Of a stretch of 64,000 bases of DNA, positions 4,984 to 30,582 are shown piece by piece; positions within the stretch are counted from its first letter, which is position 1, and every line of letters starts with the position of its first letter. Made by a program: the position numbers and the translations under genes. The notes below the pieces were generated by a model. That model saw only the letters and a program-made list of their open reading frames with translations, was not told where the DNA came from and ran no database searches. The stretch is taken from the NCBI GenBank assembly GCA_001599295.1, contig BCGN01000002.1, positions 868,001 to 932,000 on the forward strand. Direction: 5' to 3'. Origin of the DNA: Sporopachydermia quercuum. Its lineage: Eukaryota.

Positions 4984-6504
4984 ATGACTTCCACCTTACC
5001 GAAAAAGTTTGTCTTCAAGGAAGACGCTACACCATCAAAGCTTCAAAGTCATCAACGAAACAAATCCGAACAATTGAATCAAAGGGATTATCCACCNTCT
5101 TCACCAATTTGTCACTCAAATGGATCATCACCTGTTGTTCAGACTGTTATCTCTGGCACAACAAAGATCGGGAAATGGAATACTTTCACTTTATCGCCTG
5201 ATGGGAAAGTGAAAAAATCAAGCGTCTCAGCTAAATCATCAAGTAATGAAAGTACACCGAGACATAAGCACTCAAGGACATTGTCTTCCTCTTCCTCAAC
5301 TTCAACATCTTTTAATGATTTGAACACTTTGGGTGGTTCTAGCAGACCTTCTTCTCAACATAACCCTTTCCCCACTGATTATTCACTACCACCAAAATCA
5401 ANTGAAACGAACATTGACACTATGGGAATAACTACATCGATGACAAATGATCCACTATCATTAATAGCAACTCGTCAAAGACATCTGCTTCCTACACCTG
5501 AATCTGCTGCTATGCCAAACTTTATGTCTGAAGAGTTCATAAATTCCGATATTTCATCCAGTCCTATTTCATCGAACTTATTTTCAGTGCCCGATATTGA
5601 TATAAGTATTTTATCATCATCACCAATAGGATCAATGGACCCNTTCACAGATAACTTGATATCCCAATCACCCACTCGTACGAAAAGACAGACGAAAACA
5701 AAGAGACTTAGAAACTCCATTGTCAAGCCCTATGCTAATTCATCNCCTATTGAAATCAACCAGGCTCAGTCAAATGGAAGTGAACGCTCTAAGCACCTGT
5801 ACCAAAACCTTTCTTTATGTACTACTACCTCTTCAAAAGCTGTTTTAGCAGAAGAATCTTCCTCCTCGATGATGAATTTCAAACCCCTTGCGAGGAGACG
5901 TCAAAGCTGCGTAAGCTTTGGTGCTCTAATAAAAGCTGGAGATAATGAACCGGAATCCAAAAGACCAAAATTGAATCTATCAATATCTGTTTCTGGAAGA
6001 GCGGTTATTCAAGCATCAAAATCTGAATCTCACTCATCTCTAAGGAAACCAGATTTTTCTTTGGAATATCAACAACGAAAAAATCGAACTTTTGCTCCAA
6101 CTCCAACTCCAACTCCTACTAAAGCTACTGGATTTCCTAAACTAACAGGAACTACAGAGCTCAAGTCAACTGTTGATCCTTTACTATCAAGTGCTGTTGA
6201 CATTGATTTGAAAATGTTCTCAGATTATGATTTTGCTGACTCATTCTTCAAGCCTGAATATCCTCGAATGGCAACATTTGATAACAATCATAGCAACCAT
6301 CACTCAGAACCATTGGAAGAGCTCGACCTAAACGCTTTAATGGGTAGCCCTTCTATTCTGAATCAATCTTTGGGTGCTGGATTTTCGGGATTTATGTCAA
6401 CAGGAGGAAGTGTTACCAAAGTGTCGCATGAACACAAGTTGTATGGTGGAGCATATGAAGATGATGCTCGCTCTGCTTTAAGGAAAGTAATGGGTTTACG
6501 CTAA
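4984..6504 (+). CDS. Ser/Thr/Pro-rich disordered nuclear protein, possibly Msa1/Msa2-like G1/S regulator
   Basis: 506-aa ORF from ATG 4984 with many SP/TP sites and basic NLS-like clusters (KRQTKTKR, KRPKL). Short motifs LSISVSGRAVI and C-terminal DDARSALRKVM resemble Msa1/Msa2 as I recall them. The gene is likely real; the family call is tentative. Confidence 0.7.
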   Translation: MTSTLPKKFVFKEDATPSKLQSHQRNKSEQLNQRDYPXSSPICHSNGSSPVVQTVISGTTKIGKWNTFTLSPDGKVKKSSVSAKSSSNESTPRHKHSRTLSSSSSTSTSFNDLNTLGGSSRPSSQHNPFPTDYSLPPKSXETNIDTMGITTSMTNDPLSLIATRQRHLLPTPESAAMPNFMSEEFINSDISSSPISSNLFSVPDIDISILSSSPIGSMDXFTDNLISQSPTRTKRQTKTKRLRNSIVKPYANSXPIEINQAQSNGSERSKHLYQNLSLCTTTSSKAVLAEESSSSMMNFKPLARRRQSCVSFGALIKAGDNEPESKRPKLNLSISVSGRAVIQASKSESHSSLRKPDFSLEYQQRKNRTFAPTPTPTPTKATGFPKLTGTTELKSTVDPLLSSAVDIDLKMFSDYDFADSFFKPEYPRMATFDNNHSNHHSEPLEELDLNALMGSPSILNQSLGAGFSGFMSTGGSVTKVSHEHKLYGGAYEDDARSALRKVMGLR

Positions 6505-7367: not shown

Positions 7368-8286
7368 TATTCTTTCAGCGCTGATGCAATTATATATACT
7401 ACAATGACCCTTGTGTTTGATTAAATATATGAATCAATGAACTTGCTCCGACTTCTAAGATCTATCAGACAATATACATATAAGAACAATTCCCAGTGGA
7501 GAACCTTCAAACAGAATGCTTAATTTATGCTCCAGATTTCAGTTTCATTTTAATGACCAGATAGCTTCCACCGGGCTGATACTTTGATCAATGAGCAGAT
7601 CATGTACTTGCTGTCATTTGCNTACTCGCTTGATCGAGCTTCTCGTCCAAAATGATGGCTTTCCTGATTATGTAATCTCTCTAATTCATAGTGTNGGGGT
7701 ATCAGAAGATAGTATACGNGACAGAACGATGGTGAGAAAGACCTATCTACACTATGTTAAATTGTCATTGTTCAAAGGAAAACTAAGCTAAATCTACATT
7801 CAAAACTTTTTGAAGACTTGTTTTCAACTCACCAACAGGAGATATACAATAAATCGTTCTATATCGTGAAATTTCCTTTACAGCAATTTTAGCTTTATCA
7901 TAATCCAGTCACCTGCCTCTTTTACCCGCTTTCAGCANCGGTGTAAAGGTGTCATCGATCATGTCTTTAATCAGGTACGCACTGGATGAGGTTTAGTGCC
8001 TTGACCATAATGAAATGAATCATTTTATGCATAAAAGATAAGATAGTGAGAAATATAAAGAAAAACTATACTTCTTCAATATAGAATGAAGAGTTGTGAT
8101 AATTACTACTGCGCGATAGGGCTCATTGAGTGTTGGACGTTTTGAACCACGCAAGCTACATAATACAACTAACCGACTAGTCCTTTTTCTATTTCATCTT
8201 TTAGTGATCCAGATTTCTTACAAAAGTTAGATATCAAAAATCAGCCACCACGTTGAGGTTCAGGTTCAGATTCTGGCCAAAACAGC

Positions 8287-9165
8287 ATGCCATTATCAAA
8301 TCCTTTTGAAGATGCGGTGAGTTTAGAAACTCAACCAGCATTCAGTGATTCTCCTGAATTCGATCAACTTGCAGAAGATATCTCAAATAGGTTGTTTGAG
8401 ATCAATTCACAGCTTGCTCAACTAGGTCGGTTGGTTAGCTCTTTATCATCATCTAAGGACACTAGCAATGTTCAAGGGAAACATTTCAGCAGAGAAAAGA
8501 ATACAGAAATAAATGGTAAGTCGTTGAAAATTTCTCAAGATCTAACAGACTCATTCAAACAATTGTCTAGACTAGTGAAGGAATTACAAGACTGGGGAGA
8601 CATCACGCCATCGCAAAAATTCACACAGCAAAAACTAGGTAGGGAGTTCACAGTTTCCCTTCAAGAATTTCAAACGTTACAACATTCATTAGCAGATGAA
8701 CAAAAACTCGATATTAATGAGGCTAAATCAATAATACAGAAGAAGAAACAANTCACTGGACCAGCAGCTGATATTGATGGGGAGCTATCTTATAGTGATG
8801 AGCCTCAAAATGCCCAAGAACAGTCATTGGAGCTGATATCGGAATCTGAGTTGACGGAGGAAGAAATGAGATATCAACAACAACTAATCAATGAAAGAGA
8901 GGAAGAAATACAGAANATTGAAAGAGGAATTACTGAGTTGAACGAGATTTTTACAGATCTGGGATCTATTGTTACCGAGCAAGGTAATGTTCTCGATAAC
9001 ATAGAAGCAAATATCTACAACTATGCATCCAATACAAAAGCTGCAGCTTCAGAGTTGACCAAAGCAGCTCATTATCAAAAAAGATCGAAGGGTAAAATGT
9101 TTTGTTTTTTGGTGATCTTACTTACAATCCTGGCAGCTGTGATTTTGACTTTAATATTTGGCTGA
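8287..9165 (+). CDS. PEP12: Endosomal/vacuolar syntaxin (Qa-SNARE, Pep12/Vam3 type)
   Basis: Habc region, SNARE motif EREEEIQ.IERGITELNEIFTDLG.IVTEQG..LDNIEANI, C-terminal TM helix. Confidence 0.85.
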   Translation: MPLSNPFEDAVSLETQPAFSDSPEFDQLAEDISNRLFEINSQLAQLGRLVSSLSSSKDTSNVQGKHFSREKNTEINGKSLKISQDLTDSFKQLSRLVKELQDWGDITPSQKFTQQKLGREFTVSLQEFQTLQHSLADEQKLDINEAKSIIQKKKQXTGPAADIDGELSYSDEPQNAQEQSLELISESELTEEEMRYQQQLINEREEEIQXIERGITELNEIFTDLGSIVTEQGNVLDNIEANIYNYASNTKAAASELTKAAHYQKRSKGKMFCFLVILLTILAAVILTLIFG

Positions 9166-10762
9166 ACAGTTTTTTCTTGCGTTATCGTGACAAAAGCACT
9201 ATTATAGTAGCTACGTGCTTATCAGAAGCGTTCACAGCATAGATTATGATCAATTTACAGTATTAGTGTCAATAGTACATGTCATTTTTATGAAACTTCA
9301 GAGGATCTTGATGGTATTCATTAGACTTATAGGAGGAAAGCAACTGAAACACCAGAAATCTACATATGTTTTGTCTTTCTCTGAAATTATTGATGAANCT
9401 GTTGAATCCTTGTCCTGAACCTCAGTATTTTGGCAAACATGAACCCAGAGATTATCATATCCAATGAGTATTACCGGCCTCTTTATGATCTAATTAAGAG
9501 CTAAGAATCTCTTAATCCTTTGGTAGTAGGAAGATGTAATTCCTCTTTCTTATTCTTTCTGTTCTTTATAACCTAGGAAAGTCATCCATTCCTATAGTAC
9601 TTCACTTAATAGATTTACTCAGTATAAGCAATGAGAAACCCCATACTATACGTTCCAAATAGGTGCCTTACCTATTTCATCATTCTCCACCGTTATCTAA
9701 TCAAACTTCCTTGCATTCCGTTCCTATTCAAAACAAGAAGTATGTAAATAAGTTTATACCCCTGTATCTCAACTTGATTCCTTCATAATAGAACTTGATC
9801 CGGTCTTCTATCAATTATCTTGCCTTATTGAGAAAACTCATGGGCTTCTATGACCCTTTTCAGTTCAATTTCCAAACTTTATTTTCAATCCTGGGTGTTC
9901 AAAGGTTTCATTCTATCAGCACGGTTTGTTGATTGGGCATAACAATAACCTGACAGGATTTTTAATAAAATTTTCCCATTATCCTTGAAATAGTTTGTAT
10001 TTCGATGGAAGTTATAAAATTACTAATTGCCGTCTGACGACTACGTTAGAATAATAGTAAATGGTGAAATATTAATATCAGATTTGATCATGCAGCGTTA
10101 TGTAAGCTTGACATTAACTTGAACTGTAATTCTAATTCAGGAACAACAATAACACACCATTTGGGTACAACAAAACTAATGAAGAAAATTGTCAACCTGA
10201 AGGTNTAATTACTTTGATACTATAAAGAGACAGGGCGGAAACATAGATAAAAGAAAACAGTTACATTGCTATTACTTCCAACAGGAGTGAGAATTAAATG
10301 GATGAATTAGGGAAGAAGTAAATTAACCTCGACGTAGTTGATCTCCGTTAAATTATCTTTATCTTTTTGCGTTCGAGAAGCTCTGAATTTAATTCTAGTT
10401 AAGAGCTATTACTGCAATTACAATTATACTACAGCTGGAAGGTCTCAATTGTTATTTCCTTTAATTCGATCTCCAAACCAAACATTGTTTTTTTTCTTCC
10501 TTTAACTATTAGTTATNCTTAAGGAGTGGTTACAGATAATTGTATTAAGAATTAGCCTGGAGATCATTTGAATCAGAATTGTATTTGATTCAGATCTATT
10601 GCTGACACTTGATTTAGTTGCAAGCTCATGCTTTCAATTGAATGGATATCAATACATATCAATAATCAATTGAGTCACATCAAGGTGTCTGAAANTCTTT
10701 GTCCTTGAATAATTCAGCTATAAACATAAACTAGAAAGATATATTACTGTTTACTGATAATA

Positions 10763-13675
10763 ATGTCTATGTCAATTGAAGATCCAATTGGTGATGAATT
10801 CCTTTTCTTCCCATCAACATTGACCGTTGATTCTGAAGCAGTATCTACATTAACAACCACAGCAAGCCATAACNCTATTGCAAACATTCTCCCTAACAAT
10901 AAGGACACAACTGTTCATAACAACTACAAAAAAACTTCTAAATCTGACACTATTAGTCCTTACAATNCTGATGAGTTTGATGAAGAGTTCTACGTTTTGA
11001 ATGATGTTCCTTTATTTAGACCTGATGAAAACTTCTTCAGAACCCCAGCTCCTAACCCTGATCTGAACTTTCCCACAATAGAACAACTGGAAAACTACAT
11101 TCATAGAATATCTGAAACTTTCAAACTTCCTTTGGTCAAATCACACTCAGAGAAAAACGCATCATCTCATGATATTCAATATGTTTGCTCTAAATATTCA
11201 AAGTATTTATTCAGAATCAAAGGTAAAGAAAAGAATAAGACAAGCAAATGCAATAATCCCGGATGTGATTTCAGATTGCGATTTTCTTGTAATAAGAAAA
11301 CTGGTAACGTTTGGAGGTTGACAAAATTTAATAATATTCACAATCATACCGTTGACGCTTCAGTTAATCATTTATTAAGTGAAATGGAACTACTAGAGAT
11401 GTCATTAGATTCCTATTTAGAAGTTGATAAAGAACGTATAACTCAGCTCTTGTATTTTGGAATTGGTGTTTCGGATGTTTATATGATTATGAAACAATTA
11501 TTCCCTCATAGGAAATATGATGCCATGGAAATCTACAGATACAAAATATATCTTACAAGATTAGACAAATCAACAAAGAAGAGAAAATATTCCAAATATC
11601 CTGAATGGGCGCAAAAATCAATTGATGAGATACGTAAATCTGGTTCAATTGGTAATAGTAAGAGTCAAGTGGTTAATAATCCATTTGCCGAGACTATTTT
11701 GAGATACCAAATATCAGAAATTGGAAACTTGAATTACTTTCTTTGGATCAATAATGAGGGATTGAAGCTATTTCAAGCCTTTGGTGGTGTCCTTTTTATG
11801 GATACCTACTTCAACACTAACAAATTAGATGTCCCTATATTTGACATCATTGGTGATTTGTCAACCGGTTCAATTCATCTTGAACACAAACCTTCAAATT
11901 CAGTTTTCACTCCTAATAGCTTGGATTCAAGTATTGGCGAAGAAAATAGAAGAACAAGCGGCGGTAGTACCAACTCAACTGATACTGCACAAGAAGAATT
12001 ACTGGATAATGTCACATCATTGAAGGAAAATCATTATTATCATCTAGGTACTTGTTATATTTCTCCAACCTGTCAAAATGCTGGTACTATTGCTTTAACA
12101 GACCTTAGAAACATCCTTGGTGAAGATTCTATACCAAAATCATTTATCTGCAGCGCTGATGAGTATATCCTCAAAGGCTGGGTAGATGTTTTCCCGAAGA
12201 CGCCTTATATGGTTTGCCAATGGAAGTTCTGTAACGATGTTATCAATGGAATTCGTCAAAAATTCATTTCTAAGAAGATGAATAGAGCTAATGACTTATT
12301 CATGAGTGTGTTCGAAGCAACTGCAGAAGCGGATTATCACCAGAAACTACAAATAGTCGAACAAAGGGTTAATCAAGGCTGTAGAAGTCCTGAATGGGTC
12401 AATCGATTTATTAAAGACAAATTGAATGAGTCTTTCGTCAAAGGACATCTATGCAACTTTGAGATCTCAAAATTGGAACAGAATTCTAATCTATTTTCTG
12501 GTCAAAGAAGGTCATGTGGTATATTGGAAATGAGGGCTCATTTCATCAAGAAGTTTAAAAGAAAGCTAAAGGCAATCAATATTTCTGGAGAAGAAAAAAG
12601 AAGTAATGTGGAAGAATTGACTAGGAAAAAAATCTCATCAACAATTCAAATACTAAAACAAAGCATGGGTCATAGGTTTAAGGAAGTGGTTGAGACAGTA
12701 TTCCCATTAGATAAGCAAGATGCTATTACCTTCTTCTTGAAGAGAGCGCATCTTTTTGGTTGCTTCGTTACTAATCATGAATCCCTGACTCTTGATACAA
12801 TGAACGAAATAACTAAACAATACAAGCAGATGGAAGTTAAGGGCCTCAAAATTCAGTCGGGAACGGGAGGGCCTAACAAACCATGCACCTGTAATATCAC
12901 GAAACGAAAGGGAATTCCATGTCTGCATAAAATCAGAGANTGTGAATTGAGTTATAGAAAGCTGGGAATGAATTTGATTCAAACAGATACAGCAGTTATC
13001 AATCAGAATGATAATTTGTATGCTTATAATTATCCTACACCTCTAGGTCAAGAGTATAGCGAGTTGGATAACTTTTTAACTGGCAATGGATTACCTGAGC
13101 CTGAATATCACTTCAATAACTATCAATCACAAACAACTATCTCCAACGCAAGTCAAGCTCACTTGGGTCTAAAGAGAAGTCACGATTATCTATTAGAAAC
13201 ACCTAACAAGAGTAAAGTCTATGGCATGAAATCATCAGTTAATGGCAATATTATGAACGCCAATCCTTTCACGCCTATTAAAAATATTACCCCAACAACA
13301 ATATCTCCTTTAAATGAATTCTCCGCAATTAGATCACGAACAATTGATCCATCATTCTCTAATTTGAACCTGAATAATGGCCTTGTTTGGTCACCACCTG
13401 TTGGAATATTATCTGGTGCCGGTGCTACTATGTCACCACATTTCTGGGGACCCGAAGCAACCCCTGGTGGTATGGGATTATATTCTGGACCATTTGTTTC
13501 ACCGTTTAAATTTGGAACTGAATATAATACGCCTTCCATGCCAACAACAACAACAACAACAACAACAACAGTAACCATCGGTGGAAAAATGACCGCATCA
13601 AGAGCTCTTCAACCTCTTTCAGTTAATAGAATTCTTGAGGATGACTGGAGCGTCAAAAAAAGAAGATTTGATTAA
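10763..13675 (+). CDS. MULE/Mutator transposase-derived protein (FAR1/WRKY-GCM1-type DNA-binding domain, degenerate DDE domain, SWIM zinc finger), probable domesticated transcription factor
   Basis: DBD at about 11069-11347 (YVCSK...GCDFRL...WRLTKFNNIHNH); MULE motifs VLFMDTYFNTNK and VFPKTPYMVCQW; SWIM CTC-x9-CLH at 12884-12928; uninterrupted 970-aa ORF. Confidence 0.85.
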   Translation: MSMSIEDPIGDEFLFFPSTLTVDSEAVSTLTTTASHNXIANILPNNKDTTVHNNYKKTSKSDTISPYNXDEFDEEFYVLNDVPLFRPDENFFRTPAPNPDLNFPTIEQLENYIHRISETFKLPLVKSHSEKNASSHDIQYVCSKYSKYLFRIKGKEKNKTSKCNNPGCDFRLRFSCNKKTGNVWRLTKFNNIHNHTVDASVNHLLSEMELLEMSLDSYLEVDKERITQLLYFGIGVSDVYMIMKQLFPHRKYDAMEIYRYKIYLTRLDKSTKKRKYSKYPEWAQKSIDEIRKSGSIGNSKSQVVNNPFAETILRYQISEIGNLNYFLWINNEGLKLFQAFGGVLFMDTYFNTNKLDVPIFDIIGDLSTGSIHLEHKPSNSVFTPNSLDSSIGEENRRTSGGSTNSTDTAQEELLDNVTSLKENHYYHLGTCYISPTCQNAGTIALTDLRNILGEDSIPKSFICSADEYILKGWVDVFPKTPYMVCQWKFCNDVINGIRQKFISKKMNRANDLFMSVFEATAEADYHQKLQIVEQRVNQGCRSPEWVNRFIKDKLNESFVKGHLCNFEISKLEQNSNLFSGQRRSCGILEMRAHFIKKFKRKLKAINISGEEKRSNVEELTRKKISSTIQILKQSMGHRFKEVVETVFPLDKQDAITFFLKRAHLFGCFVTNHESLTLDTMNEITKQYKQMEVKGLKIQSGTGGPNKPCTCNITKRKGIPCLHKIRXCELSYRKLGMNLIQTDTAVINQNDNLYAYNYPTPLGQEYSELDNFLTGNGLPEPEYHFNNYQSQTTISNASQAHLGLKRSHDYLLETPNKSKVYGMKSSVNGNIMNANPFTPIKNITPTTISPLNEFSAIRSRTIDPSFSNLNLNNGLVWSPPVGILSGAGATMSPHFWGPEATPGGMGLYSGPFVSPFKFGTEYNTPSMPTTTTTTTTTVTIGGKMTASRALQPLSVNRILEDDWSVKKRRFD
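13544..13570 (+). repeat. (ACA)9 trinucleotide repeat encoding poly-Thr
   Basis: Read directly, within the C-terminal tail of the MULE-derived ORF. Confidence 0.95.
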
Positions 13676-14235
13676 GGGAATTAATCACAGAGCAAAGAAG
13701 AGATAACAATACATAGAATACCAAAAAGGAGCAATATTTAACCCAAAGAAGATAGAAATATAAGGGGAAATGAGAAGGGACTTAATCACAAGAATTAGCA
13801 TTCCATTTCAGAGTGCCGTGATGTAACATATAGGGAAGAGACAACTTTGTACAGTTCAGCACTTTGAAAATAAATTGATCATTTAAAATATATTTATGTG
13901 AATCATTCCACAGATATTATNGATAGATTCCTCTTAAAGCAGGTAGAATAACTAAATCAACAGTTGTTAAGTGTCCATAGCCCGCAACATAATTAGTACG
14001 AATTACGGATTGTATTGGTAAAATGACTGATCGTGAGTATGAGAAAGCAAGTAAAAAATACCGAAATCGATGCGCTTTTTTTTGTTTTAAGGTCATTATT
14101 TATTCGTTTACTTTATTTTATATACTATCCAACAACACATTTAATCTATGATATATACTGTGCCAAACCAGTCGGCCACTTCAAATAATAACAAGTATCA
14201 ATCACCCCTTGTCACGGGTATTGCCAGTGAACTGT

Positions 14236-15153
14236 TTACAACTTAGATTTTGATCTACCAACAGTACATTTGATTAAACCGTTAGGATTGAGAGGGCAAA
14301 GAGATGGTAAGAACACTTCCGCATCAGCGCCAGTGTTCTTGATTCCGTCATGCCATGACATATCAATGTTCATGTAGTGCTTATTAGGTAATGAGTAAGA
14401 CACAGTTTCTAGTTGAGCAACATTAGACAAGATCTTTTCTGCCATGTTGTACATGGTGGCTTGAACAGAAGGTGAGTTTTCTAATGCGAAAAGTTCTAAA
14501 GTAACATTTCTAGCAGAATCATAGGCGTAATCAAATAAACCAGCCTTAGCATTTGATTGAATAATTTCGATAGACTTAGTTGACCAAGTCCATGTAGCTT
14601 CAATATCGGTTGATAGAATTCTATCAGTTGTAGGTTGCAAAGTAGTAAAATCGCAGACATTGTATCCATAAAACATGGATCCAGTTGATTTCAAAACTGT
14701 GAGATCTTTAATACCGGAACTCAAATCTAAAACGTTTTGACCGGGATTATAATGCAAAGAACAAACTCTTACTTCATCACCCCCTTTAATAAAAGAATGA
14801 TCATGGAGCTTCCCGTTAACGGGGAATCTATTCCAGCTGTGCTGAATGATATCAACGAAAACACCTTCGACTTGATCGTACTTGGAGACGAAATGAGTAG
14901 CTAGAACAGAAGCAAAATATTCAATAGGCCAAACATCATTTAGCTTGGCCAGAATATAGGTAGTGTTCTTAACAGTATCAGTAGGAACAACACTGGAGTT
15001 GTCAGCTTCTGTGTATGAAGTTTCAAACTTGCCTTCTAATAAAATAGTACAAGTTAATTCAATGACTTCTTGATAGCTAGGATTCTTAGGATCCTTCTTG
15101 ACTTTCAAAAGTCTGACGTGATCTTTTCCGTATCTTGAAGAAATGAGAACCAT
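14236..15153 (-). CDS. URO1: Urate oxidase (uricase), peroxisomal
   Basis: YGKD.VR, SYTEADNS.VVPTDTVKNT, LTVLKSTGSMF, DRILST, SPSVQATMY, LPNKHY motifs; C-terminal PTS1 -SKL. Confidence 0.97.
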   Translation of the reverse strand: MVLISSRYGKDHVRLLKVKKDPKNPSYQEVIELTCTILLEGKFETSYTEADNSSVVPTDTVKNTTYILAKLNDVWPIEYFASVLATHFVSKYDQVEGVFVDIIQHSWNRFPVNGKLHDHSFIKGGDEVRVCSLHYNPGQNVLDLSSGIKDLTVLKSTGSMFYGYNVCDFTTLQPTTDRILSTDIEATWTWSTKSIEIIQSNAKAGLFDYAYDSARNVTLELFALENSPSVQATMYNMAEKILSNVAQLETVSYSLPNKHYMNIDMSWHDGIKNTGADAEVFLPSLCPLNPNGLIKCTVGRSKSKL

Positions 15154-15607
15154 TTTTGATGTAGTATATATTGTGGTTTGAAAGATTATTTAGTTCTGGT
15201 AACTATACAGGCTTCTGCTTTTAAATAGTCGCTGATATTGTTGCGGGTATTTATAGAAGTTTAGATGATGAGCCGATCTTTTTTATCTCCTTATTGTTGC
15301 TTCTGCTCTTTTCTCTCTCTTCGTTTCTACTTCTAAGATATGGTCGATGCAATGAGGAATCACTCAATATTTATACTATTNCCTTTCCAGAGTTTGGAAT
15401 GGTAAATAAGCTCAGAATCTGGTTTGGAAATTGTAACGAAAGCCTCAACTCTAAACNAGTTTATTTCAATCCCTCCACCGTTCTTGTTACCAATATCGAT
15501 GTCTAGCTCTAATCGTAGATTTAGATAGTTTATCTTTTGACCAAGATATTCCGTTCCTGACCGATATCTGTTGTTCAATCTGACCATTTGCAGTTTGAAG
15601 AGACTGC

Positions 15608-15950
15608 GATAAGCTTTAAGTTTGAGTTAGGTAAAACTGCGTACCGAAGACAAGATTAATTCTTAAACTTTATTATATGCATCAGTAAATCCGACCAGGC
15701 CTGATAAATTGAATGCAATTATGGGTAGAAGCAAAAGGCAGTATCTTGGGAAAGAAAAAACACGAAAAGAATGAAACAAAGAGATTTTGATTGAAAACAT
15801 CAGTGTAGGTCGTTGATAAGGGAAGTAGATATGTTAGTTGGTTAAAAATTCAAACGATACATTCTGCTGCTATAGTGAGGGAACAAAGTGTCTGTCGTCA
15901 TAGACTAAGAAAAGTATACCGCTAAATGGTTAGCCAACGAGAGTGATAAG
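15608..15950. promoter_or_regulatory. GATAAG cluster upstream of uricase (nitrogen-regulation GATA sites)
   Basis: GATAAG at 15608-15613, 15815-15820 and 15945-15950, with further GATAA copies nearby. Confidence 0.5.
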
Positions 15951-16297
15951 AACTGTTTCCATCTATAGTTGCAGGGTTCGAACTACGTATTGTCAAGATG
16001 CTCTCTGGAAGAAGATATCATATTCTAATGAAATTCATAGTAATAACAATGATATCATAAAACAGAAATGCAATTCAAACAACTCACGCTAATTCCCTTC
16101 ACTAGTAAAATCTCGGTGAAGTCCTTGCGTGAATTGGAGTGGAAAGTGGATCATACGATTAAGTAAGTTGGGATTTTGGGAATCTTTTCAACTCTGAATT
16201 TATTTCCTTTTAAGAAAACTAGAATTACATCAATAAAGTCANCAAAATCTACTACTTAAGTCACTTGTTACCGCTTATATCATTCCACGAGCCACAC

Positions 16298-16310
16298 CGG
16301 AATTTGCCGA
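16298..16310. promoter_or_regulatory. CGG-N6-CCG site (Ppr1/UaY-type Zn2Cys6 binding site)
   Basis: CGG AATTTG CCGA, about 1.15 kb upstream of the uricase ATG. Confidence 0.4.
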
Positions 16311-18658
16311 ATCCATGTATGAAAGTTCGATTTCCACACTTTATCCCAATAAGGAAATTTCCATGAATTGAATGGCTTTTACCGCTCTCTCATGCTGTTC
16401 TAAAGAAATAAATGTAAAGACCAACAAGCGTGAAAAAACTACATGCCAATGAATTTGTAAGGTACGTTTTTATGATCTCAAGACCATATGGNCCTAGAGT
16501 AAGAATAATTTATCGGGGAAATCGAAAGTAACANAATTTCTTTCCTCTGCGGATTCAACTGGTTGTATGAACAATAGGGATAACTATTTTGAGAGACCTA
16601 TAGAAGGTAGTACCTAGTACTATTCTCCACATTAAATTGTAGGTTGTAGCGTAAATAATTACTAGAACAGCAGCTTAATTCTTATTCTTCATTGTATCGT
16701 AGCTTCGATATTAAAAGAGATATTTAGATATCATGGGATATTCTCAGGCAATATAGGCAATAGTATCTATATTTATCAATTGACCACTCAAATTCTCTTT
16801 TCTCTACGAAATATTTCAAAATATATGGCAATTGTGTTATCCTATCTTCTACAGTTCATTGCACACTAGCAATGAGTAGAAACTCTCATTCAATCTTACT
16901 TCTCCAACATAAACTTCACAATATTTTTAGCCCTTTGATTTGGCAACGGNCATTACTCAACCAAATCCTAACTTATTGAAAGTAGTCTCACAGCTGCTCC
17001 ATCTTTACCGATCATTCTCTGCCTCCACTTCCATAATATTCTTCTCATCCATCTCAACGGCTTTTTCTCAAATTATCCACTCGTAGAATGTCAGCCACAT
17101 TTATTAACGGTATATACCGCTTAAGATTTAACTATATCCTATAAATACATAAACCTCAAAACATTATTTCCAAATTAGGTAATGCCTTTGTACACGGTCT
17201 TCTCCGAAGTATTTTAACTTTCGTTTATTGAAAGAGTTATTTCGAACAATGGAAAGGAATGAAAATGTTTGGGATTTGTTATTGACGTATTCAATAAGCA
17301 TAGTGGAATTAATGAAGTGTATTAAACAAGCATAGGATTGGTCAAAAGGAGAAAAGAGGTATTGCATCAGCGGTAAAAACAATGATTTGGTGGAGATTTG
17401 ATTAAACGAATGAGATGAGGTTGAATGACGTAGAAAAAAAGGAGTTCCGATGTTTGAAAATATATTATAACGTAAAATGTCAAACTTGTCATAATAAAGG
17501 TTAATTATATTAATAAAATAGGCGACAATGAAGGAGATAACTCCAGATCAGATCATATTGTGAGCGACAAAGTAAAAAGGAATTGGTACTAAAGATTGAA
17601 CTTATGCATTCAATAAAGTTGGGCGAACTTCATGGGATGAGAAGGTTGCTTTAATGTTCCTTCTTGATTAGCCGCATCGGGACTCCAGAGTTATTTTATC
17701 AATAATTTCCTATAAAAGGTATTATCAACTTAAGGACAGATGATTAGACGGATAGCCATTTCTTTTATTATGACAATTATAGTTAACCTGTAAGTTACAA
17801 AATATACTCGTTCTATGTATATAGTTCTATTACCCTTTTTAGCGTTATCGAGAATCATANTACATAGTTGTTGTTTGAAGTAGTAGGAAACACGTATCTC
17901 CGACATTACAGTATGTTGATAGTACTATAATTCTGTCCACAGAGAGGTGAAGTCTCTTATGATTATCATTGAATGAAATTAANATTTATTGTTGGCGATG
18001 GAATCATTATCTACTCGGTGAAAAGCGACACTCAAGCTTTCTGTTCTTAGTGTTTTCTATCAGTGAGATGTTTCCACTTTATCGGCTGATCTAAACCACG
18101 TTTTCTCATCCATATCATAAACACGAACACTCATGTGCGACAAACCCNGCGTTCAAAATAAGAAAGGGTGAAAGGCAATAAAAAATGAACTGTAACAAGA
18201 GTTAGGCGTCTTATATCTGATTATCTAGTCCTTATTACACTGTTCCTCTTATCCTCATCGTCACATGATAAACTATTCATCAAATCTTGCTAGCAAAGCG
18301 AATATATATATAATGCAGCGAACACTCACTGATATCTTTCAGCTAGAATTTACGATTGGCTTGTTGTATCTAGACTGATCAATTCAATTATACTATCTAT
18401 TATGTTTTCATCCTATTGTAATATTGATCATGATGTTACTACTGAACTTTTCGCGCATTCATAATCTTTCCCACCAATATGAATTATGGATTTCCTTTCC
18501 CAAACCTCGCCATCATCAACTGATAATAACTGGTCATGCTTATTATTCATGCAGTAGAATCACNCTTTATTCTGCAATCATACTCAGTGCTATCAACAAA
18601 ATAACTGAACCCTCCCCATAGTTTCCCATTTTCGATTTCTTCACAATTTCCACCGAAC

Positions 18659-18724
18659 CACGTGATGCATTCTTACATGTGATTTCTCTGTTTTTCACGT
18701 GACCTAATATAGTTTGAAAATTTT
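18659..18724. promoter_or_regulatory. CCM1 promoter: two CACGTG E-boxes (Cbf1-type) and an RRPE/RGE element
   Basis: CACGTG at 18659-18664 and 18696-18701 (TCACGTGAC); TGAAAATTTT at 18715-18724. Confidence 0.55.
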
Positions 18725-18909
18725 CACTCATTAAAANTAAATCAATAATAACTTTTTATTTTTTGTATNATTTCAAAGTAAATATGTACAGACTTTATAC
18801 TAATAATGCGAAGGTCAGATATTCAAAAATTGGCATTGGAACGGCATAAACTGAGATGTTTGAAGCGATATAAGTAATCCTATAATATACTACTCAGAAG
18901 TATGTAAAA

Positions 18910-21255
18910 ATGATATGGGGATTACTAAGATGTCCAGAATGGATGAGTCAGGGTTATATACTGAAACATAGGAGTTTTTTGCTCGTTTCAACTTCAACAT
19001 TTTCAACTACAGCTTCAAAACAAAAACAGAGGGCGACGTGGNTATCTTCCAAAGATCGAAAAGAATTGAATATTGTTAAGTCAAAGACAGGCCAGGAAAA
19101 GGCAGAAAGGAAAAAGCAGCTACGTGAACTGATGAAGTTTACATCTAAGATCAAGACGGAAGTAGCACGACTAAATGAAAAAGAACAAGTAGCAGCAATA
19201 GAAGAGGCACTTCCAAAACAAGAGATAAAGGAAGAAGATGTTGAACAAGCTGTTGAATTCTTGTTATCGTCACCATCAGATAGTGCATCAAATAGTATAA
19301 AAGCTGATAAACATAAAGCGCTGATAGAGCAGTCTCAGAGACAATTGCTTCCTGATAAGGANGACAATTTGAGTCTACCACATGGACTAGGATCTTCAGT
19401 TACGGAGAAAGTTGAAACAAAACGGTTATTCGGAACACCGCAAGAAAAGGAAATACCATCAAAGATATATGATAAGGCAGGGGATGCTGTTAAATTCATT
19501 GCGTCTCCCAAACATCAAAATTGGTTCAGATTTATAAAAGCAGTGTATGAGAATGGAGGGTTGGTTGATGTAACAGCAAAGGACACTAATAAGTTAATCA
19601 GCGTTATACCTAACTATCAATTAGCAGACTGTGTTGCATTAATTTATGAAATGGCCGAGATTGCCAACCTTCTGGAGAATAAAANAGTTCGAAAGCATCT
19701 ATATAAAGCAATAATTTCCAGTTACGTCGAAAAAGGAGCAGCATATACTCCAATAGCTGAATCGTTTTATGAGTTATTTAAGCAAGAGGGATTTCCTATG
19801 GAACGATACATTTTCAGTAACCTTTTTAAAATGTGTTCTAAAGCTAATGACTTACGAAAAGCTTCCTATTATTTGCAGGAAATGAAACTTGCGGGAATTG
19901 AACCAGATCTCAAAATTCACACAGTTTTAGTTCAGCTGTCGATCAAGAATGATAATATGAGTCAAGCTCAAGGTATTTTTGACAAGTTGAAATATATGTC
20001 TTTGGAAAATCAACCCGATGAAAGATTATATGCTTCTATGATTTTGGGCCATGGAAAACTGAACAACGTGGAGAGATGCTTAGATCTCTATGCAGAGATG
20101 ACAACAAGGCCATTCAATCCTATCAAACCAACACTTAATACATACATAACTTTAATATTTGCATGTGCAAGAAGATCAGAGTACCTTATAAAAGGATGGG
20201 AGTTAGTCGTTGAAATGATCGAGAATATTCCAAATGCTTTTGATAAGAAAGCCTTACAAGCAATATGTTTCTTGGCTGGTCATTCTGGAGACCTACCATT
20301 AATTCGAGTAATATTTGCTAAACTATATGAAAATAAGCTAATAAGAGCAGAATCATTTTCGGTTCATGATAGGCAAATGGCAGCAGCCTCATCAGATTCT
20401 ATTGTGGTTAGTTCCCTAATGACTGGCTACAGTACTTACGATTCTCGCATAAAACCAGTGTTGTATGCCATAACTGGTGGCAAAGCCATCAGAGACAAAT
20501 TTTTCTATGGTGCTGATTTTACACCAAAAGCGTCTCTACCACCATTTTTGCCAATATACGAAACGTTTTCTCCTGATGTGGTTTTGGCTGAATCCCGAGC
20601 TATTATGAAGTTTCTACACAGTGACTTTCCTTCATTAATAAACTCAAGAGTCGTTCTCAGCTATTTGTCTGTTTGCTCCAAGCTTCATAATATGGAGGAG
20701 TATAAACGGAGATTTGAAGAAGAATCGTACTTCGCTGGAAAGCAATCTGTTTTGGAGAAGCTGAATCCAAAGCCAAAGGTTGAAATAATTGAAGAAGATT
20801 CCGAATACATCAGCTCTAAGACAAAAGCCGTTTCAGAAACAACATCAAATATGAAGGTTCCTAGGAGCCATGATCTTTATGCCAGTGCCATCACCGCAGC
20901 AACCTACTGTGGCGATTTAGCGTACGGACAAAGCATTTGGATTGAGAGAGGTGCATGGAGAAAAACAAAAGCTTTCAGATCTTTACCAAAATATAAACAA
21001 AAGGAACAAGATTTTGATTTTGCAATTAAGATGTTTCGTCTATTAACTGCTTGCAAACAACTTGATGAAGCTTTGACTATAGTGAAAGCATCGTTGGATA
21101 GATTCCCCTGGACACCAGAGCTGGTTTCTCCATTAATTTCGCAGGCAGAGACATTGGAATATTTCAAAATCAAATATGAACTAACTGAAATATGCAAACA
21201 TATCAAAAAACCTGCGTATCTCCGTAATAGAGATGATTTGGAAACAGATGAGTAA
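18910..21255 (+). CDS. CCM1: Mitochondrial pentatricopeptide-repeat protein (Ccm1)
   Basis: Basic/hydroxylated presequence, tandem PPR helices (LYASMILGHGKLNNVERCLDLYAEM), and Ccm1-like motifs PPFLP, LAESRAI, W.ERG.WRK. Confidence 0.88.
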   Translation: MIWGLLRCPEWMSQGYILKHRSFLLVSTSTFSTTASKQKQRATWXSSKDRKELNIVKSKTGQEKAERKKQLRELMKFTSKIKTEVARLNEKEQVAAIEEALPKQEIKEEDVEQAVEFLLSSPSDSASNSIKADKHKALIEQSQRQLLPDKXDNLSLPHGLGSSVTEKVETKRLFGTPQEKEIPSKIYDKAGDAVKFIASPKHQNWFRFIKAVYENGGLVDVTAKDTNKLISVIPNYQLADCVALIYEMAEIANLLENKXVRKHLYKAIISSYVEKGAAYTPIAESFYELFKQEGFPMERYIFSNLFKMCSKANDLRKASYYLQEMKLAGIEPDLKIHTVLVQLSIKNDNMSQAQGIFDKLKYMSLENQPDERLYASMILGHGKLNNVERCLDLYAEMTTRPFNPIKPTLNTYITLIFACARRSEYLIKGWELVVEMIENIPNAFDKKALQAICFLAGHSGDLPLIRVIFAKLYENKLIRAESFSVHDRQMAAASSDSIVVSSLMTGYSTYDSRIKPVLYAITGGKAIRDKFFYGADFTPKASLPPFLPIYETFSPDVVLAESRAIMKFLHSDFPSLINSRVVLSYLSVCSKLHNMEEYKRRFEEESYFAGKQSVLEKLNPKPKVEIIEEDSEYISSKTKAVSETTSNMKVPRSHDLYASAITAATYCGDLAYGQSIWIERGAWRKTKAFRSLPKYKQKEQDFDFAIKMFRLLTACKQLDEALTIVKASLDRFPWTPELVSPLISQAETLEYFKIKYELTEICKHIKKPAYLRNRDDLETDE

Positions 21256-27873: not shown

Positions 27874-30582
27874 ATGGAAGTTTCTGCTAGACCTGATGAT
27901 GTTGATGCTACGTATGTTGAATTATTGATTTACTTCTTAAGGGGAATTGATTCATTTTTAGAAGAGCTAAGTATCAGCCCATACGTTTTGATATCTCTAT
28001 TTTCCCTCTCCCTCAAAATGCTGTCATTTAAATGTTGGAGTTATATTGATTACTAACGCTTCCTTATATCATAGATGGGCAAAAGTTCAACCAGGTGTGG
28101 AATCTCTTATTGCAAAGGATTTAGATAAAGATGGAGGACTAACCCCTCAAATGGTACGTTTCCTCTCTTATTCATGAGTTTTCTATCAAATAGAATAACG
28201 TGGTACTTGCAACTCCCTGTTCCTTATTTTTGAAATGTCTTACTAACTATTCTCTTTCTAGTATATTGAGGTTTACTCGTATGTACTTATCATAATCCAG
28301 TAAACGAGTTGTATACAGTGTTTGAACTATTCTAACATAATATCAGAGCTATTTATAAATACTGCATTTCGAAAAAAGTTACTTCAGTCCGCGGATCAAA
28401 ATCTCAAGCAGTTGGTGTTCATCCAATTGGTTCTGAGTTGTATACTTTGTTATCAAAGTTCTTAGTTAATCATTTGGAAAATTTATTGGCAACTAAAGAA
28501 GAATCAGAATCTTTTCTAAAATTTTATGTTAAAAGTTGGAGTAGATATACATTAGGTGCTGGCTATTTGAATCATGTATTTGACTACCTCAATCGTTACT
28601 GGTTGAAGAAAGAAAGGGATTCGAATAAAGAGTCTGTTTATGATATCAATACTCTTTGTTTGGTTATCTGGAGACAAGTCATATTTACACCTAAGTTAGA
28701 AATACTGGTGAGTGAGATTTTAGATGAAATTAGAAAGCAAAGAGATGGAGAAGATGTTAATAAAACTGAGATATCTGAAGCTATCAAATCCTTCATTACA
28801 TTAGGGCTGAATAGCTTTGATTCTAAGAAAATAGATTTGACAATTTATATTGAACATTTCCAGATTCCTTTCATTGCTGCTTCAAAAGAATATTTCCGCA
28901 AAGAATCTGCTGAATTTTTGTCGAAGAATAGTGTTGTTGATTATATGCGGAAAGCAGAAACTCGTTTACTTGAAGAAAAAGCTCGATCTGATTTATACTT
29001 ACATTCACATTCAGAATATCAATTAATGAGAGCTGTAGAAGAGTCATTGATTTCTGATCATCTTAAATTGATGTTAGAGGAATTTGAAGTTTTATTGGAT
29101 AGAGATCAGTTCTCACATTTGCATAGAATGTATATGTTATTCTCTCGAATACCTTCTGCAGTAGGAGTACTGGGAAAGATTTTTGAAGATTATGTTATTC
29201 GTCAGGGAACATCTGCCATTGAGATACTTCAAGCTGATCATTTAAGGCAAGTTGAATCAGAAGCAGGTGATCATTCTGATAAGGCCCACAGTGATGCTAC
29301 TGCACCAGGTAAAAATACTAAATCGAATAATGCAACATCTGTTGATCCTGCATTGTATATTAAAACATTATTACAAGTACATAATAAATATGCAAAAGTT
29401 GTGGCAGATGCTTTTGAAAATGATAACGAGTTTCAAAAACGAATTGACAATGCTTGTACTGCTTTCATTAGCAAGAACGTTATTGCTAACTCAGGAAGAA
29501 GTGGTACATCAAGAACTCCCGAATTACTTGCTAAATACAGTGATTCATTGCTGAGAAAGAAGAATAAGAATGCTGGAGACTCGGATGATTTACTTGATGA
29601 CGTGATGGTGATCTTTCCATATATTGATGACAAATCTGCTTTTGAGTCTTATTATAGAAGATATCTTGCTAAACGCTTGATCAACAATTTGTCTGTTTCA
29701 GAAGAAGCAGAAGACTATTTGGTTAACAAATTAACGCACGCATGTGGTATTGAATATACTAATAAACTACAAAGAATGTTTTTAGATATGCATGCCTCAG
29801 AGGAACTAAGGGAACAATTCAGAAAACTAACAATGGATGATGAAGATTCAATTGATTTCTCGATTTTGGTATTATCGGAGAACATGTGGCCAATGTCAAA
29901 GACTATCACCCAGTTTAGACTACCTGAAGAGCTGAAGAAAACTTATAACAAGTTAGGAGAATTATATGGACAGAATCATAGTGGGAGAAAATTATCATGG
30001 CTATGGACACATTGTAAAGGTGAAATGAAAGCAAATATTTCTAAAACGAGTAAAGTGTCACATATACTTCAAGTTTCCGTATTTCAAATGGCTATATTGT
30101 TACCATTCAATGACCGTGATTCATTTTCATTTGAAGAAATGAGAGTTATTACTGGGTTAGAAGCTGAGTATCTGAGTGGTTCATTAGTGAGCTTAGTGAA
30201 ATCAAAGTTATTACTAGCTAAACCAAGCAAATTGGATGAAATCTCTAACCCAAGTACTGTTTTCACACTCAATTCTGATTTCAAGTACAAGAAAGTGAGA
30301 GTTAATTTGAATGTACCTTTGAAGATTGAACAGAAACAAGATGATGATGAAACGAAGAAAGAGATCGAAGAAGATCGTAAATTATTCTTACAAGCAACTA
30401 TTGTTAGAGTTATGAAAGCTCGAAAAGTGTTGAAACATTTAGCATTACTTAATGAAGTTATTTCAATTTCTCATTCACGTTTCAATGCCAAGGTTTCTGA
30501 NATTAAGAAATGTATTGATCTATTGATTGAGAAAGATTATTTACGAAGAGTTGAGAATGATACTTATGAGTATGTGGCTTGA
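27874..30582 (+). CDS. CDC53: Cullin 1 (SCF scaffold), 4 exons, 789 aa
   Basis: Exons 27874-27911, 28075-28153, 28262-28278, 28347-30582. Cullin motifs F.YLNRYW, PELLAKYSD, HSGRKL.WL, and the neddylation motif IVRVMKARK. Confidence 0.93.

What the first reader, a model, noticed from the sequence alone, without database searches (positions are those of the whole stretch)
10763..13675. Full-length Mutator transposase apparently domesticated into a transcription factor
Seen: an intact 970-aa ORF with the whole MULE architecture (WRKY/FAR1-type DBD, DDE fold, SWIM finger). Aligned by eye to the MULE consensus ITDxDxAxxxAIxxVFP...CxWH, the first Asp is kept (FMDTY, 11801). The second catalytic Asp falls on Ser (ICSADEYILKGWVDVFP, 12152) and the CxxH His is Lys (CQWK). 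There is a roughly 50-aa S/T-rich insertion inside the catalytic domain, an acidic/aromatic N-terminal extension, and a roughly 250-aa SP/TP-rich tail ending in an NLS-like KKRR. I saw no terminal inverted repeats or target-site duplication, and the neighbours are housekeeping genes. Known: FAR1/FHY3 and MUSTANG in plants, and Aft1/Aft2 and Candida Rbf1 in yeasts, derive from MULE transposases; Aft1/2 keep essentially only the DBD. Inference: this is a FAR1-like exaptation that retains the full transposase scaffold, possibly lineage-specific and undescribed.
Basis: partly seen in the sequence, partly recalled or inferred. Interest (0 to 1): 0.8.

Follow-up and report, generated by a model that had tools for sequence, protein, structure and literature searches.

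The report
Crippled Mutator transposase gene in yeast
A yeast chromosome carries one intact gene descended from a Mutator-type jumping-gene enzyme that has lost key DNA-cutting residues and its transposon ends, so it is most likely kept as a DNA-binding host protein, though whether it is conserved or expressed could not be tested here.

Summary
Window 10763-13675 (+) is an intact 970-codon ORF. It is a very divergent relative of Mutator-like (MULE) transposases. All Pfam hits are below threshold. However, all 14 of 14 HMMER hits are canonical MULE transposases. A template-free model matches the ISCth4 Mutator-family transposase and the Aft2 DNA-binding domain.

Alignment confirms D347 and E572 kept, the second catalytic Asp replaced by S464, CxxH changed to CQWK, SWIM and DBD zinc ligands kept, and a unique ~52-aa disordered insertion. 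There are no terminal inverted repeats above chance and no second copy in the window. Codon usage matches the neighbouring genes.

The ORF keeps only 24 of 48 columns that canonical MULEs conserve, yet it is unbroken. That argues for selection on a non-catalytic role.

Not tested, because no yeast genomes or RNA data were reachable: genome-wide copy number, orthologues and synteny, dN/dS, and expression. The transcription-factor reading is therefore an analogy to FHY3/FAR1, not a demonstration.

The organism reads CTG as Leu.

Verdict: probable new member of a known kind, a domesticated MULE transposase. Interest is moderate.

The parts
10763..13675 (+). Intact 970-codon ORF (stop included) for a MULE-transposase-derived protein
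   Evidence: ORF; all 14 of 14 HMMER hits are canonical MULE transposases; the nearest language-model clusters are all MULE/FAR1/ZSWIM, top score 0.96.
10763..11047 (+). N-terminal extension, residues 1-95: acidic/aromatic (17% D+E, DEFDEEFY), with no homologue
   Evidence: composition; no aligned counterpart in most MULEs; residues 70-95 modelled with pLDDT<50.
11048..11410 (+). WRKY-GCM1/FAR1/Aft-type zinc DNA-binding domain, residues 96-216. Zinc ligands C142, C168, H193 and H195 are kept.
   Evidence: FAR1 21.6 bits, below threshold; the C, C, HNH columns are kept. Aft2-DNA 4lmg_B, Z 8.6, rmsd 2.4 over 75 residues, protein residues 96-197.
11576..11587 (+). Basic KKRK cluster (residues 272-275) in the linker; NLS-like by inference only
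11696..11869 (+). First part of the RNase H-like catalytic core (residues 312-369). Holds the first catalytic Asp, D347, at 11801-11803 within a degenerate MDTYFNTN motif (consensus MDCTYKTN).
   Evidence: (ZSWIM1-3_RNaseH-like, residues 334-363, below threshold)
11870..12025 (+). About 52-aa S/T/N-rich insertion (residues 370-421) between two strands of the RNase H fold. Unique to this protein and predicted disordered.
   Evidence: gap in all 10 other sequences; 54% STPNQG; model residues 300-352 have pLDDT<50.
12026..12562 (+). Second part of the catalytic core (residues 422-600). S464 (12152-12154, AGC) sits at the catalytic second-Asp column. D466 is the conserved non-catalytic Asp of TDxD. 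C485..K488 (12215-12226) replaces CxxH. E572 (12476-12478) is kept.
   Evidence: the profile aligns the TD of TDRD to the aD of the ISCth4 transposase. ISCth4 Z 11.1; integrase cores Z about 10, rmsd about 3.
12884..12931 (+). SWIM-type zinc finger pattern CxC-x9-CxH (residues 708-723)
   Evidence: aligns with the CxC...GLPCxH of MULEs. Pfam SWIM itself gave no hit at E<=1.
12953..13672 (+). Low-complexity C-terminal tail (residues 731-970). It has 10 S/T-P sites and a T9 run encoded by (ACA)9 at 13544-13570, and ends in KKRRFD.
9166..10762 (.). 1.6-kb upstream intergenic region, with no ORF of 100 aa or more and no TIR partner
13676..14235 (.). 0.56-kb downstream spacer to the convergent uricase gene, with no TIR partner

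Best explanation
The ORF is an immobilised descendant of a Mutator-like (MULE) transposase, now kept as an ordinary host gene.

Shown:
- It retains the three structural modules: an Aft2/FAR1-type zinc DNA-binding domain, an IS256/Mutator RNase H-like core, and a SWIM finger.
- Its active site has Ser at the second catalytic Asp and Lys at the CxxH His.
- A disordered loop is inserted in the core.
- It has no transposon ends.

Inferred:
- It no longer cuts or joins DNA.
- It works as a nuclear, sequence-specific DNA-binding regulator in the manner of plant FHY3/FAR1. The N-terminal zinc domain would read DNA. The dead transposase core plus SWIM would serve for self-association and partner binding. 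The added acidic N-terminus and the S/T-P-rich tail would supply activation and phospho-regulation.
For: Homology and fold:
- All 14 of 14 HMMER hits are canonical MULEs.
- Atlas feature hits are all MULE/FAR1/ZSWIM.
- The model matches ISCth4 transposase (Foldseek E 6.4e-4; Z 11.1) and Aft2-DNA (E 6e-3; Z 8.6, rmsd 2.4 over 75 residues).

Active-site loss:
- S464 sits at the column that aligns, without gaps back from the VFP motif, to the catalytic Asp of MULEs and of ISCth4.
- H to K in CxxH.
- Both changes need at least 2 nucleotide changes (codons AGC and AAG), so neither is a single base error.
- The TYKTN motif next to D347 is degenerate.

Selection, by inference:
- The protein keeps only 24 of 48 covered columns that are >=85% conserved in the other 19 MULEs. 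Each of those 19 keeps 70-100%.
- Its end branch is 4.3 changes per column against a median of 0.92 (quick tree).
- Yet 970 codons are unbroken, although 5.2% of possible point changes would create a stop. Under neutrality, P(no stop) would be 5e-4 at only 0.05 substitutions per site.

Kept residues: the zinc ligands of the DBD and SWIM.

Residence in the host:
- RSCU correlation with the other 16 window ORFs is 0.934, the second highest of 17, and GC3 is 0.305.
- No TIR above shuffles and no second copy in the window.
- The neighbours are ordinary genes.
- Density of N (probably heterozygous) sites is 1.03/kb, near the ORF mean of 0.96/kb and below the 2.13/kb outside ORFs. This rests on only 3 sites.

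Precedent: FHY3/FAR1 use the same three modules this way (PMC13306707, passages read).
Against: - No orthologue, synteny, dN/dS or expression evidence could be obtained.
- Every Pfam hit is below its gathering score. The model is of middling confidence (pLDDT 59.1, pTM 0.41).
- The very long branch and the loss of half the conserved columns would also fit relaxed constraint.
- Part of the divergence may belong to an unsampled yeast MULE lineage rather than to post-domestication time. That would weaken the stop-codon argument.
- D347, E572 and the neighbouring D466 are kept, so residual metal binding or catalysis is not excluded.
- DNA binding, nuclear localisation and activation are all unobserved.
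- Two of the 3 N sites in the ORF fall on first codon positions.
- Genome-wide copy number is unknown.
Confidence: 0.5

Rival explanations
1. It is a host gene under selection but not a transcription factor. The dead transposase scaffold would be used for another nuclear task, such as chromatin or centromere/telomere binding, repression of related transposons, or service as a protein-interaction platform (MUSTANG/ZSWIM-like).
For: The evidence is the same as for domestication. Nothing in the sequence specifies transcriptional activation. Rbf1, a MULE-DBD relative, was described as binding RPG-box and telomeric repeats (reference titles listed in PMC1702500, passages read). The Pfam family names for ZSWIM1-3 show that other MULE-like scaffolds exist with non-TF annotations.
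Against: The acidic/aromatic N-terminus and the retained DBD zinc ligands fit a classical activator layout. No positive evidence points to any specific alternative.
Confidence: 0.2
2. It is a decaying relic: a solitary, immobilised MULE copy that is no longer functional and has simply not yet acquired a stop codon or frameshift.
For: - The catalytic residues are lost.
- Half of the conserved columns are lost, and the end branch is 4.3 against a median of 0.92.
- The protein has low-complexity insertions and a tail with a trinucleotide repeat.
- No orthologue was found anywhere.
- No RNA evidence is available.
Against: - An unbroken 970-codon frame is very unlikely after the divergence implied. 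P(no stop) is 0.048 at K=0.02 and 5e-4 at K=0.05, before counting indels.
- Eight zinc-ligand positions of the DBD and SWIM are all kept.
- Codon usage is as host-like as that of long housekeeping genes.
- The missing orthologues are uninformative, because control neighbours also find almost nothing.
Confidence: 0.2
3. It is still a working nuclease or transposase. It could be an autonomous non-TIR MULE, or a domesticated but catalytically active enzyme like K. lactis alpha3, with D466 or another residue substituting for the missing Asp.
For: D347 and E572 are kept, and an Asp lies two residues after S464. Non-TIR MULEs exist (PMC6446971, passages read). Alpha3 shows that a yeast can use a MULE transposase catalytically (PMC5499181, passages read).
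Against: - D466 occupies the column of the second Asp of TDxD. That Asp is also present in canonical MULEs alongside the catalytic one, and the column is Leu in ISCth4. It is therefore not the catalytic position.
- The CxxH His is Lys, and the TYKTN motif is degenerate.
- A 52-aa disordered loop interrupts the core.
- There is no second copy or TIR in the window.
- None of the 16 other window ORFs scanned has a mating-type-like domain.
Confidence: 0.07

Closest known systems
Plant FHY3/FAR1/FRS proteins (MULE-derived transcription factors)
   Same: Same three-module layout kept full length: an N-terminal FAR1/WRKY-type zinc DBD, a central MULE core, and a C-terminal SWIM. Transposition has been lost and the gene is a fixed single locus (PMC13306707, passages read).
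   Different: It is not an orthologue. Identity to plant FHY3-like hits is about 19-20%, and the tree shows no grouping with support. The host is a budding yeast. It has extra parts: an acidic N-terminus, a 52-aa core insertion and a 240-aa S/T-P tail. TF activity has been shown for FHY3/FAR1 but is untested here.
Kluyveromyces lactis alpha3 (domesticated MULE transposase for mating-type switching)
   Same: A MULE-derived gene fixed in a budding-yeast chromosome (PMC5499181 and PMC13469147, passages read).
   Different: Alpha3 lies at MAT-alpha and acts by excising itself, so it is catalytically competent. Here the second Asp and the CxxH His are replaced, and no MAT-type gene is among the 16 other ORFs scanned in the window.
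Yeast Aft1(Rcs1)/Aft2 and Candida Rbf1
   Same: The DBD is of the same WRKY-GCM1 insert-containing type derived from MULE transposases. The model's DBD superposes on Aft2-DNA (Z 8.6, rmsd 2.4 over 75 residues; PMC1702500, passages read).
   Different: Those proteins are described as stand-alone DBD transcription factors without the transposase core. This protein keeps the core and SWIM. It gave no Pfam AFT hit at E<=1.
Autonomous fungal MULEs (Hop of Fusarium, Mutyl of Yarrowia)
   Same: Same superfamily, with a WRKY-type DBD plus transposase (PMC1702500 and PMC6446971, passages read).
   Different: Those have TIRs (22 bp for Mutyl), 9-10 bp TSDs and multiple copies. Here there are no TIRs above chance, one copy in the window, and a broken active site.
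ISCth4 / IS256-family transposase (solved structure 6XG8/6XGX)
   Same: Best structural match of the catalytic core: Z 11.1, 229 residues aligned; Foldseek E 6.4e-4.
   Different: ISCth4 is a bacterial enzyme with an intact DDE and has no WRKY or SWIM modules. The rmsd of 8.2 shows only a loose global fit.

Membership tests
MULE (Mutator-like) transposase superfamily - homology | Pfam MULE (PF10551) domain at or above the gathering score | tested here: not met
   17.7 bits against a cut-off of 27.6, covering only profile positions 50-98. Homology is nevertheless supported by 14 of 14 HMMER hits being MULEs and by fold.
MULE (Mutator-like) transposase superfamily - homology | RNase H-like DDE fold of the IS256/Mutator type | tested here: met
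   ISCth4 is the top match: Foldseek E 6.4e-4, prob 1.00; VIA Z 11.1. Model confidence is only middling (pLDDT 59.1).
Active MULE transposase | Intact D-D-E catalytic triad | tested here: not met
   D347 and E572 are kept, but the second Asp is S464.
Active MULE transposase | C/DxxH motif between the second D and the E | tested here: not met
   The motif reads CQWK, so the His column is K488. That column is >=85% His in the other 19 sequences.
Active MULE transposase | Terminal inverted repeats and a target-site duplication flanking the gene | tested here: not met
   The best inverted match between the flanks is 23.3 bits, against 50 shuffles with mean 21.1 and maximum 30.7. The repeat finder shows no pair bracketing only the ORF.
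Active MULE transposase | Multiple dispersed copies in the genome | not testable with these tools
   No genome is held for the window. Within the 64-kb window, tblastn finds only the ORF itself.
FHY3/FAR1-type domesticated MULE transcription factor (works-like) | N-terminal FAR1/WRKY-type zinc DBD | tested here: inconclusive
   Pfam FAR1 scores 21.6 bits against 28.1. The C, C, HNH ligands are kept. The fold matches Aft2-DNA at Z 8.6.
FHY3/FAR1-type domesticated MULE transcription factor (works-like) | C-terminal SWIM zinc finger | tested here: inconclusive
   The CxC-x9-CxH pattern aligns with the SWIM of MULEs, but Pfam SWIM gave no hit at E<=1.
FHY3/FAR1-type domesticated MULE transcription factor (works-like) | Sequence-specific DNA binding and transcriptional activation | not testable with these tools
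   Needs DAP-seq/ChIP-seq and reporter or deletion assays.
FHY3/FAR1/FRS family (membership by descent) | Groups with plant FRS proteins in a phylogeny | tested here: not met
   In the quick tree the query sits alone on a 4.3-length end branch, and no supported set holds it. Identity is about 19-20%.
Domesticated gene (general criterion) | Syntenic orthologues under purifying selection, and expression | not testable with these tools
   No orthologue was found, but control neighbours also find next to nothing. No RNA run was available.
Aft1/Aft2/Rbf1 family | Pfam AFT domain in a protein without a transposase core | tested here: not met
   No AFT hit at E<=1, and the transposase core and SWIM are present.
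K. lactis alpha3-like switching transposase | Location at a mating-type locus | tested here: not met
   None of the 16 other window ORFs scanned carries an HMG, alpha-box or homeodomain family. Only ORFs of 150 aa or more were scanned.

The most novel reading that the evidence does not exclude
This would be the first FAR1-like exaptation in a budding yeast that keeps the whole Mutator transposase scaffold. The scaffold comprises the zinc DBD, a dead DDE core and SWIM. It has been rebuilt, with an added acidic activation region and a proline-directed phospho-regulated tail, into a fast-evolving, lineage-restricted regulator. It would have arisen independently of Aft1/Aft2, Rbf1 and alpha3.
Probability: 0.35. 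Interest if true: 0.6.

Novelty: new member of a known kind. Interest (0 to 1): 0.4.

Why it matters
Budding yeasts are poor in DNA transposons. In the passages I read, their described MULE derivatives are either DBD-only transcription factors (Aft1/Aft2, Rbf1) or a still-catalytic switching enzyme (alpha3). A full-length but catalytically dead MULE gene would be a third, independent route of domestication in yeasts. It would parallel plant FHY3/FAR1 in a genetically tractable host. There one could test directly what a dead transposase core and SWIM finger contribute to a regulator. If the gene instead proves to be a relic, the finding is ordinary.

Tried and rejected
1. CTG-Ser code. I first read the ORF with table 12 (P0001) because of the low GC. 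I rejected this. In the Ste6-like ABC transporter, 8 of 12 CTG codons align to Leu (including ALVG before Walker A and the LSGGQ signature), 2 to Met, 1 to Val, 1 to Asp and none to Ser/Thr (with the N-derived X positions identified). The single uricase CTG aligns to Thr. The standard reading is P0043. Searches used P0001. It differs at 7 residues, none of them diagnostic.
2. Word-index protein search of residues 100-760: 5167 candidates, none at E<=1e-3.
3. Controls for database coverage. Neighbour ORF 4984-6504 gave no hit. The Ccm1-like PPR ORF gave one hit, 33% identical, from Sugiyamaella lignohabitans. Exact look-up of 7 readings of neighbour proteins found none in the collection. The missing orthologue therefore says nothing.
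4. Metagenome scan: 23 pattern matches, none a relative.
5. No whole genome is held, so copy number and synteny were not tested.
6. Sequencing runs: 3 DNA holders of one organism and no RNA holder listed. Laying the contigs covered only 8200-9476, so no alleles or polymorphisms were obtained.
7. PDB sequence search with the protein alone found nothing relevant.
8. Atlas search of unnamed clusters gave nothing yeast-specific; the best score was 0.90, from a Parabasalia cluster.
9. Earlier findings by place and by sequence: none.
10. The careful tree did not finish, so only the quick tree is reported.
11. Rfam: only the tRNA.
12. Literature searches listed no paper describing a full-length, catalytically dead MULE gene in a budding yeast. 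Only listings and the cited passages were read. Supplements were not consulted.
13. I did not run complex prediction for self-association, because the model confidence was too low to make a result useful.
Full report
**Observation**

Window 10763-13675 (+) is an uninterrupted 970-codon ORF. Over the same span, the longest stop-free run in any other frame is 129 codons. Three residues read X because of single N bases at 10874, 10967 and 12940. The window holds 103 such single Ns. Their density is 0.96/kb inside ORFs of 150 aa or more and 2.13/kb outside. This looks like masked heterozygous sites.

**Genetic code**

I first assumed a CTG-Ser yeast and translated with table 12 (P0001). That was wrong.
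- In the Ste6-like ABC transporter at 49861-53907, 8 of 12 CTG codons align to Leu of solved homologues. These include the ALVG before Walker A and the LSGGQ signature.
- Of the other four, 2 align to Met, 1 to Val and 1 to Asp. None aligns to Ser or Thr (the three N-derived X positions were identified).
- The only counter-example is one uricase CTG that aligns to Thr.

P0001 differs at 7 residues, none diagnostic. It was the query.

**What it is related to**

Pfam gives only sub-threshold hits, but they come in the right order:
- FAR1 DBD, residues 127-197, 21.6 bits against a cut-off of 28.1.
- ZSWIM1-3 RNaseH-like, residues 334-363, 13.8 bits against 27.2.
- MULE, residues 446-491, 17.7 bits against 27.6.

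A full HMMER pass over 1.84 billion cluster representatives found 14 proteins at E<=1e-3. The best was 1.2e-7 and none reached 1e-10. The matched stretches cover query residues about 96-259, 312-370 and 415-580.
- All 14 of 14 carry PF10551 above threshold (44-98 bits). Nine of 14 also show FAR1 and/or AFT at E<=0.01.
- Of the 10 looked up, the 4 with organism names are plant proteins (Helianthus, Lotus, Papaver, and a Trifolium member of one cluster). The other 6 are from metagenomes or unnamed assemblies.

The language-model search returned only MULE/FAR1/ZSWIM clusters, with a top score of 0.96.

An AlphaFold model of residues 70-724, built on a 20-row alignment, has middling confidence (pLDDT 59.1, pTM 0.41). 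Even so:
- Its best Foldseek matches are the ISCth4 'Mutator family' transposase (E 6.4e-4, the only match at E<=1e-3) and Aft2 bound to DNA (E 6e-3).
- With VIA-align, ISCth4 scores Z 11.1 (229 aligned, rmsd 8.2).
- Retroviral integrase cores score Z about 10 (rmsd about 3 over about 125 residues).
- Aft2 scores Z 8.6 (rmsd 2.4 over 75 residues, protein residues 96-197).

The protein is therefore a real but extremely divergent MULE transposase relative with the whole architecture.

**Active site**

In alignments with 10 and 19 canonical MULEs:
- D347 (codon at 11801) is at the invariant first-Asp column. The adjoining motif is degenerate: MDTYFNTN against the consensus MDCTYKTN.
- Counting back without gaps from the conserved VFP motif, the catalytic Asp of TDxD falls on S464 (AGC, 12152). 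D466 is the second Asp of that motif.
- A profile of the alignment matches the ISCth4 sequence weakly (E 0.12). It aligns the TD of the MULE motif to the single Asp of ISCth4, and the +2 column to Leu. S464 therefore occupies the catalytic place and D466 does not.
- CxxH reads CQWK, with K488 encoded by AAG.
- Both replacements need at least two nucleotide changes from Asp or His codons.
- The third catalytic residue, E572, is kept. So are the SWIM pattern C708-x-C710...C720-x-H722 and the DBD ligands C142, C168, H193 and H195.
- A segment of about 52 residues (about 370-421, 54% S/T/P/N/Q/G) is absent from every other sequence. It falls between two strands of the RNase H fold and is modelled with pLDDT<50.

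**Mobile element or gene?**

- The repeat finder shows no inverted pair that brackets only the ORF.
- A word-7 blastn of the 1.6-kb upstream spacer against the 0.56-kb downstream spacer gives a best inverted match of 23.3 bits. Fifty shuffles gave a mean of 21.1 and a maximum of 30.7.
- tblastn of the protein against the window finds only the ORF itself.
- The neighbours are a syntaxin/SNARE gene (8287-9165) and a convergent uricase (14236-15153). Other ordinary genes follow: CLPTM1, a Ccm1-like PPR protein, cullin, homocitrate synthase, 14-3-3, a Ste6-like ABC transporter and GPD.
- Codon usage is host-like. RSCU correlation with the other 16 ORFs is 0.934, the second highest of 17, and GC3 is 0.305 within a range of 0.25-0.35.

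**Selection (inferred, not measured)**

- Of 49 columns that are >=85% conserved among the other 19 MULEs, the ORF covers 48 and keeps 24 (50%). Each of the 19 others, tested the same way, keeps 70-100%.
- In a quick maximum-likelihood tree of 17 rows, its end branch is 4.3 changes per column against a median of 0.92. No supported group holds it. The careful search did not finish.
- For this ORF, 5.2% of all possible point changes create a stop. A neutral sequence would stay open with probability 0.048 at 0.02 substitutions per site and 5e-4 at 0.05, before indels are counted.
- An unbroken frame with all eight zinc ligands kept, after losing catalytic residues that no active MULE lacks, is most simply explained by selection for a non-catalytic function.

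The weak point is that part of the divergence may belong to an unsampled yeast MULE lineage.

**What could not be tested**

- No genome is held for the window.
- The word-index search, the HMMER pass and a metagenome scan found no orthologue.
- The controls show that the collections barely contain relatives of this yeast. Seven readings of neighbour proteins are absent by exact look-up. A neighbouring 506-aa ORF finds nothing. The Ccm1-like protein finds a single hit at 33% identity, from Sugiyamaella lignohabitans.
- 'No orthologue' is therefore not evidence of lineage restriction.
- Only DNA runs of the same organism hold the locus, and the laid contigs covered only 8200-9476.
- Copy number in the genome, synteny, dN/dS and expression all remain open.

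**Mechanism proposed**

By analogy with FHY3/FAR1, the FAR1 domain binds DNA, the MULE-derived centre mediates dimerisation, and the SWIM region is needed for activation (PMC13306707, passages read). On that basis I propose a nuclear DNA-binding regulator:
- Residues 96-216 would read DNA.
- The dead core plus SWIM would mediate self-association and partner binding.
- The acidic/aromatic N-terminus would activate (17% D+E, DEFDEEFY).
- The tail would provide regulation. It has 10 S/T-P sites in 240 residues, against 6 in the other 730, and ends in KKRR. A KKRK cluster lies at residues 272-275.

Only the anatomy is shown; every functional step is inference.

**Comparison with known cases**

- Babu et al. 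2006 (PMC1702500, passages read) showed that Rcs1/Aft1, Aft2 and Candida Rbf1 descend from MULE DBDs, and described them as stand-alone DBD factors. This protein keeps the transposase core and gives no Pfam AFT hit, so it is not one of them.
- K. lactis alpha3 is a MULE-derived gene at MAT-alpha that acts by excision (PMC5499181 and PMC13469147, passages read). Here the active site is broken, and no MAT-type domain occurs among the 16 other ORFs scanned.
- Mutyl and Hop are autonomous fungal MULEs with TIRs and TSDs (PMC6446971, passages read).
- Five literature searches listed no paper describing a full-length, catalytically dead MULE gene in a budding yeast. I read only listings and the cited passages.
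This suggests such cases recur. I did not test it.

**Verdict**

The locus is most likely a new member of a known kind, a domesticated MULE transposase that works like FHY3/FAR1 but is not related to it by descent. The domestication itself is still unproven for lack of comparative and expression data.

Noticed in passing
window 1-64000: There are 103 isolated single N bases, 1.6/kb overall: 0.96/kb inside ORFs of 150 aa or more and 2.13/kb outside. The pattern fits heterozygous positions of a diploid assembly written as N.
   Followed up: partly
window 49861-53907 (+): In the Ste6-like ABC transporter, 8 of 12 CTG codons align to conserved Leu (ALVG, LSGGQ) and none to Ser. The organism therefore uses the standard code despite its low GC (about 34-35%).
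   Followed up: yes
window 42300-49800: A 7.5-kb stretch with no ORF of 150 aa or more. It contains only tRNA-Ser(AGA) at 45754-45834 (-) and a 118-aa ATG ORF. This is unusually gene-poor for a compact yeast genome. GC dips to 0.316 at 48-50 kb.
   Followed up: no
window 28945-30582 (+): The cullin ORF starts at position 204 of the 620-position Pfam Cullin profile. The N-terminal third must lie upstream, in another exon or frame, either across an intron or because an N breaks the frame.
   Followed up: no
window 13544-13570 (+): An (ACA)9 trinucleotide repeat encodes a run of nine Thr in the tail of the ORF. It could vary in length among strains. The 119-aa antisense ORF at 13219-13578 overlaps this low-complexity region and is probably spurious.
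   Followed up: no
window 18910-21255 (+): The only detectable relative of the Ccm1-like PPR protein in the word-index search is Sugiyamaella lignohabitans Ccm1p, at 33% identity. Close relatives of this yeast seem to be missing from the protein collections.
   Followed up: partly
window 15154-18909: A 3.7-kb interval between uricase and the PPR gene has no ATG ORF of 90 aa or more.
   Followed up: no
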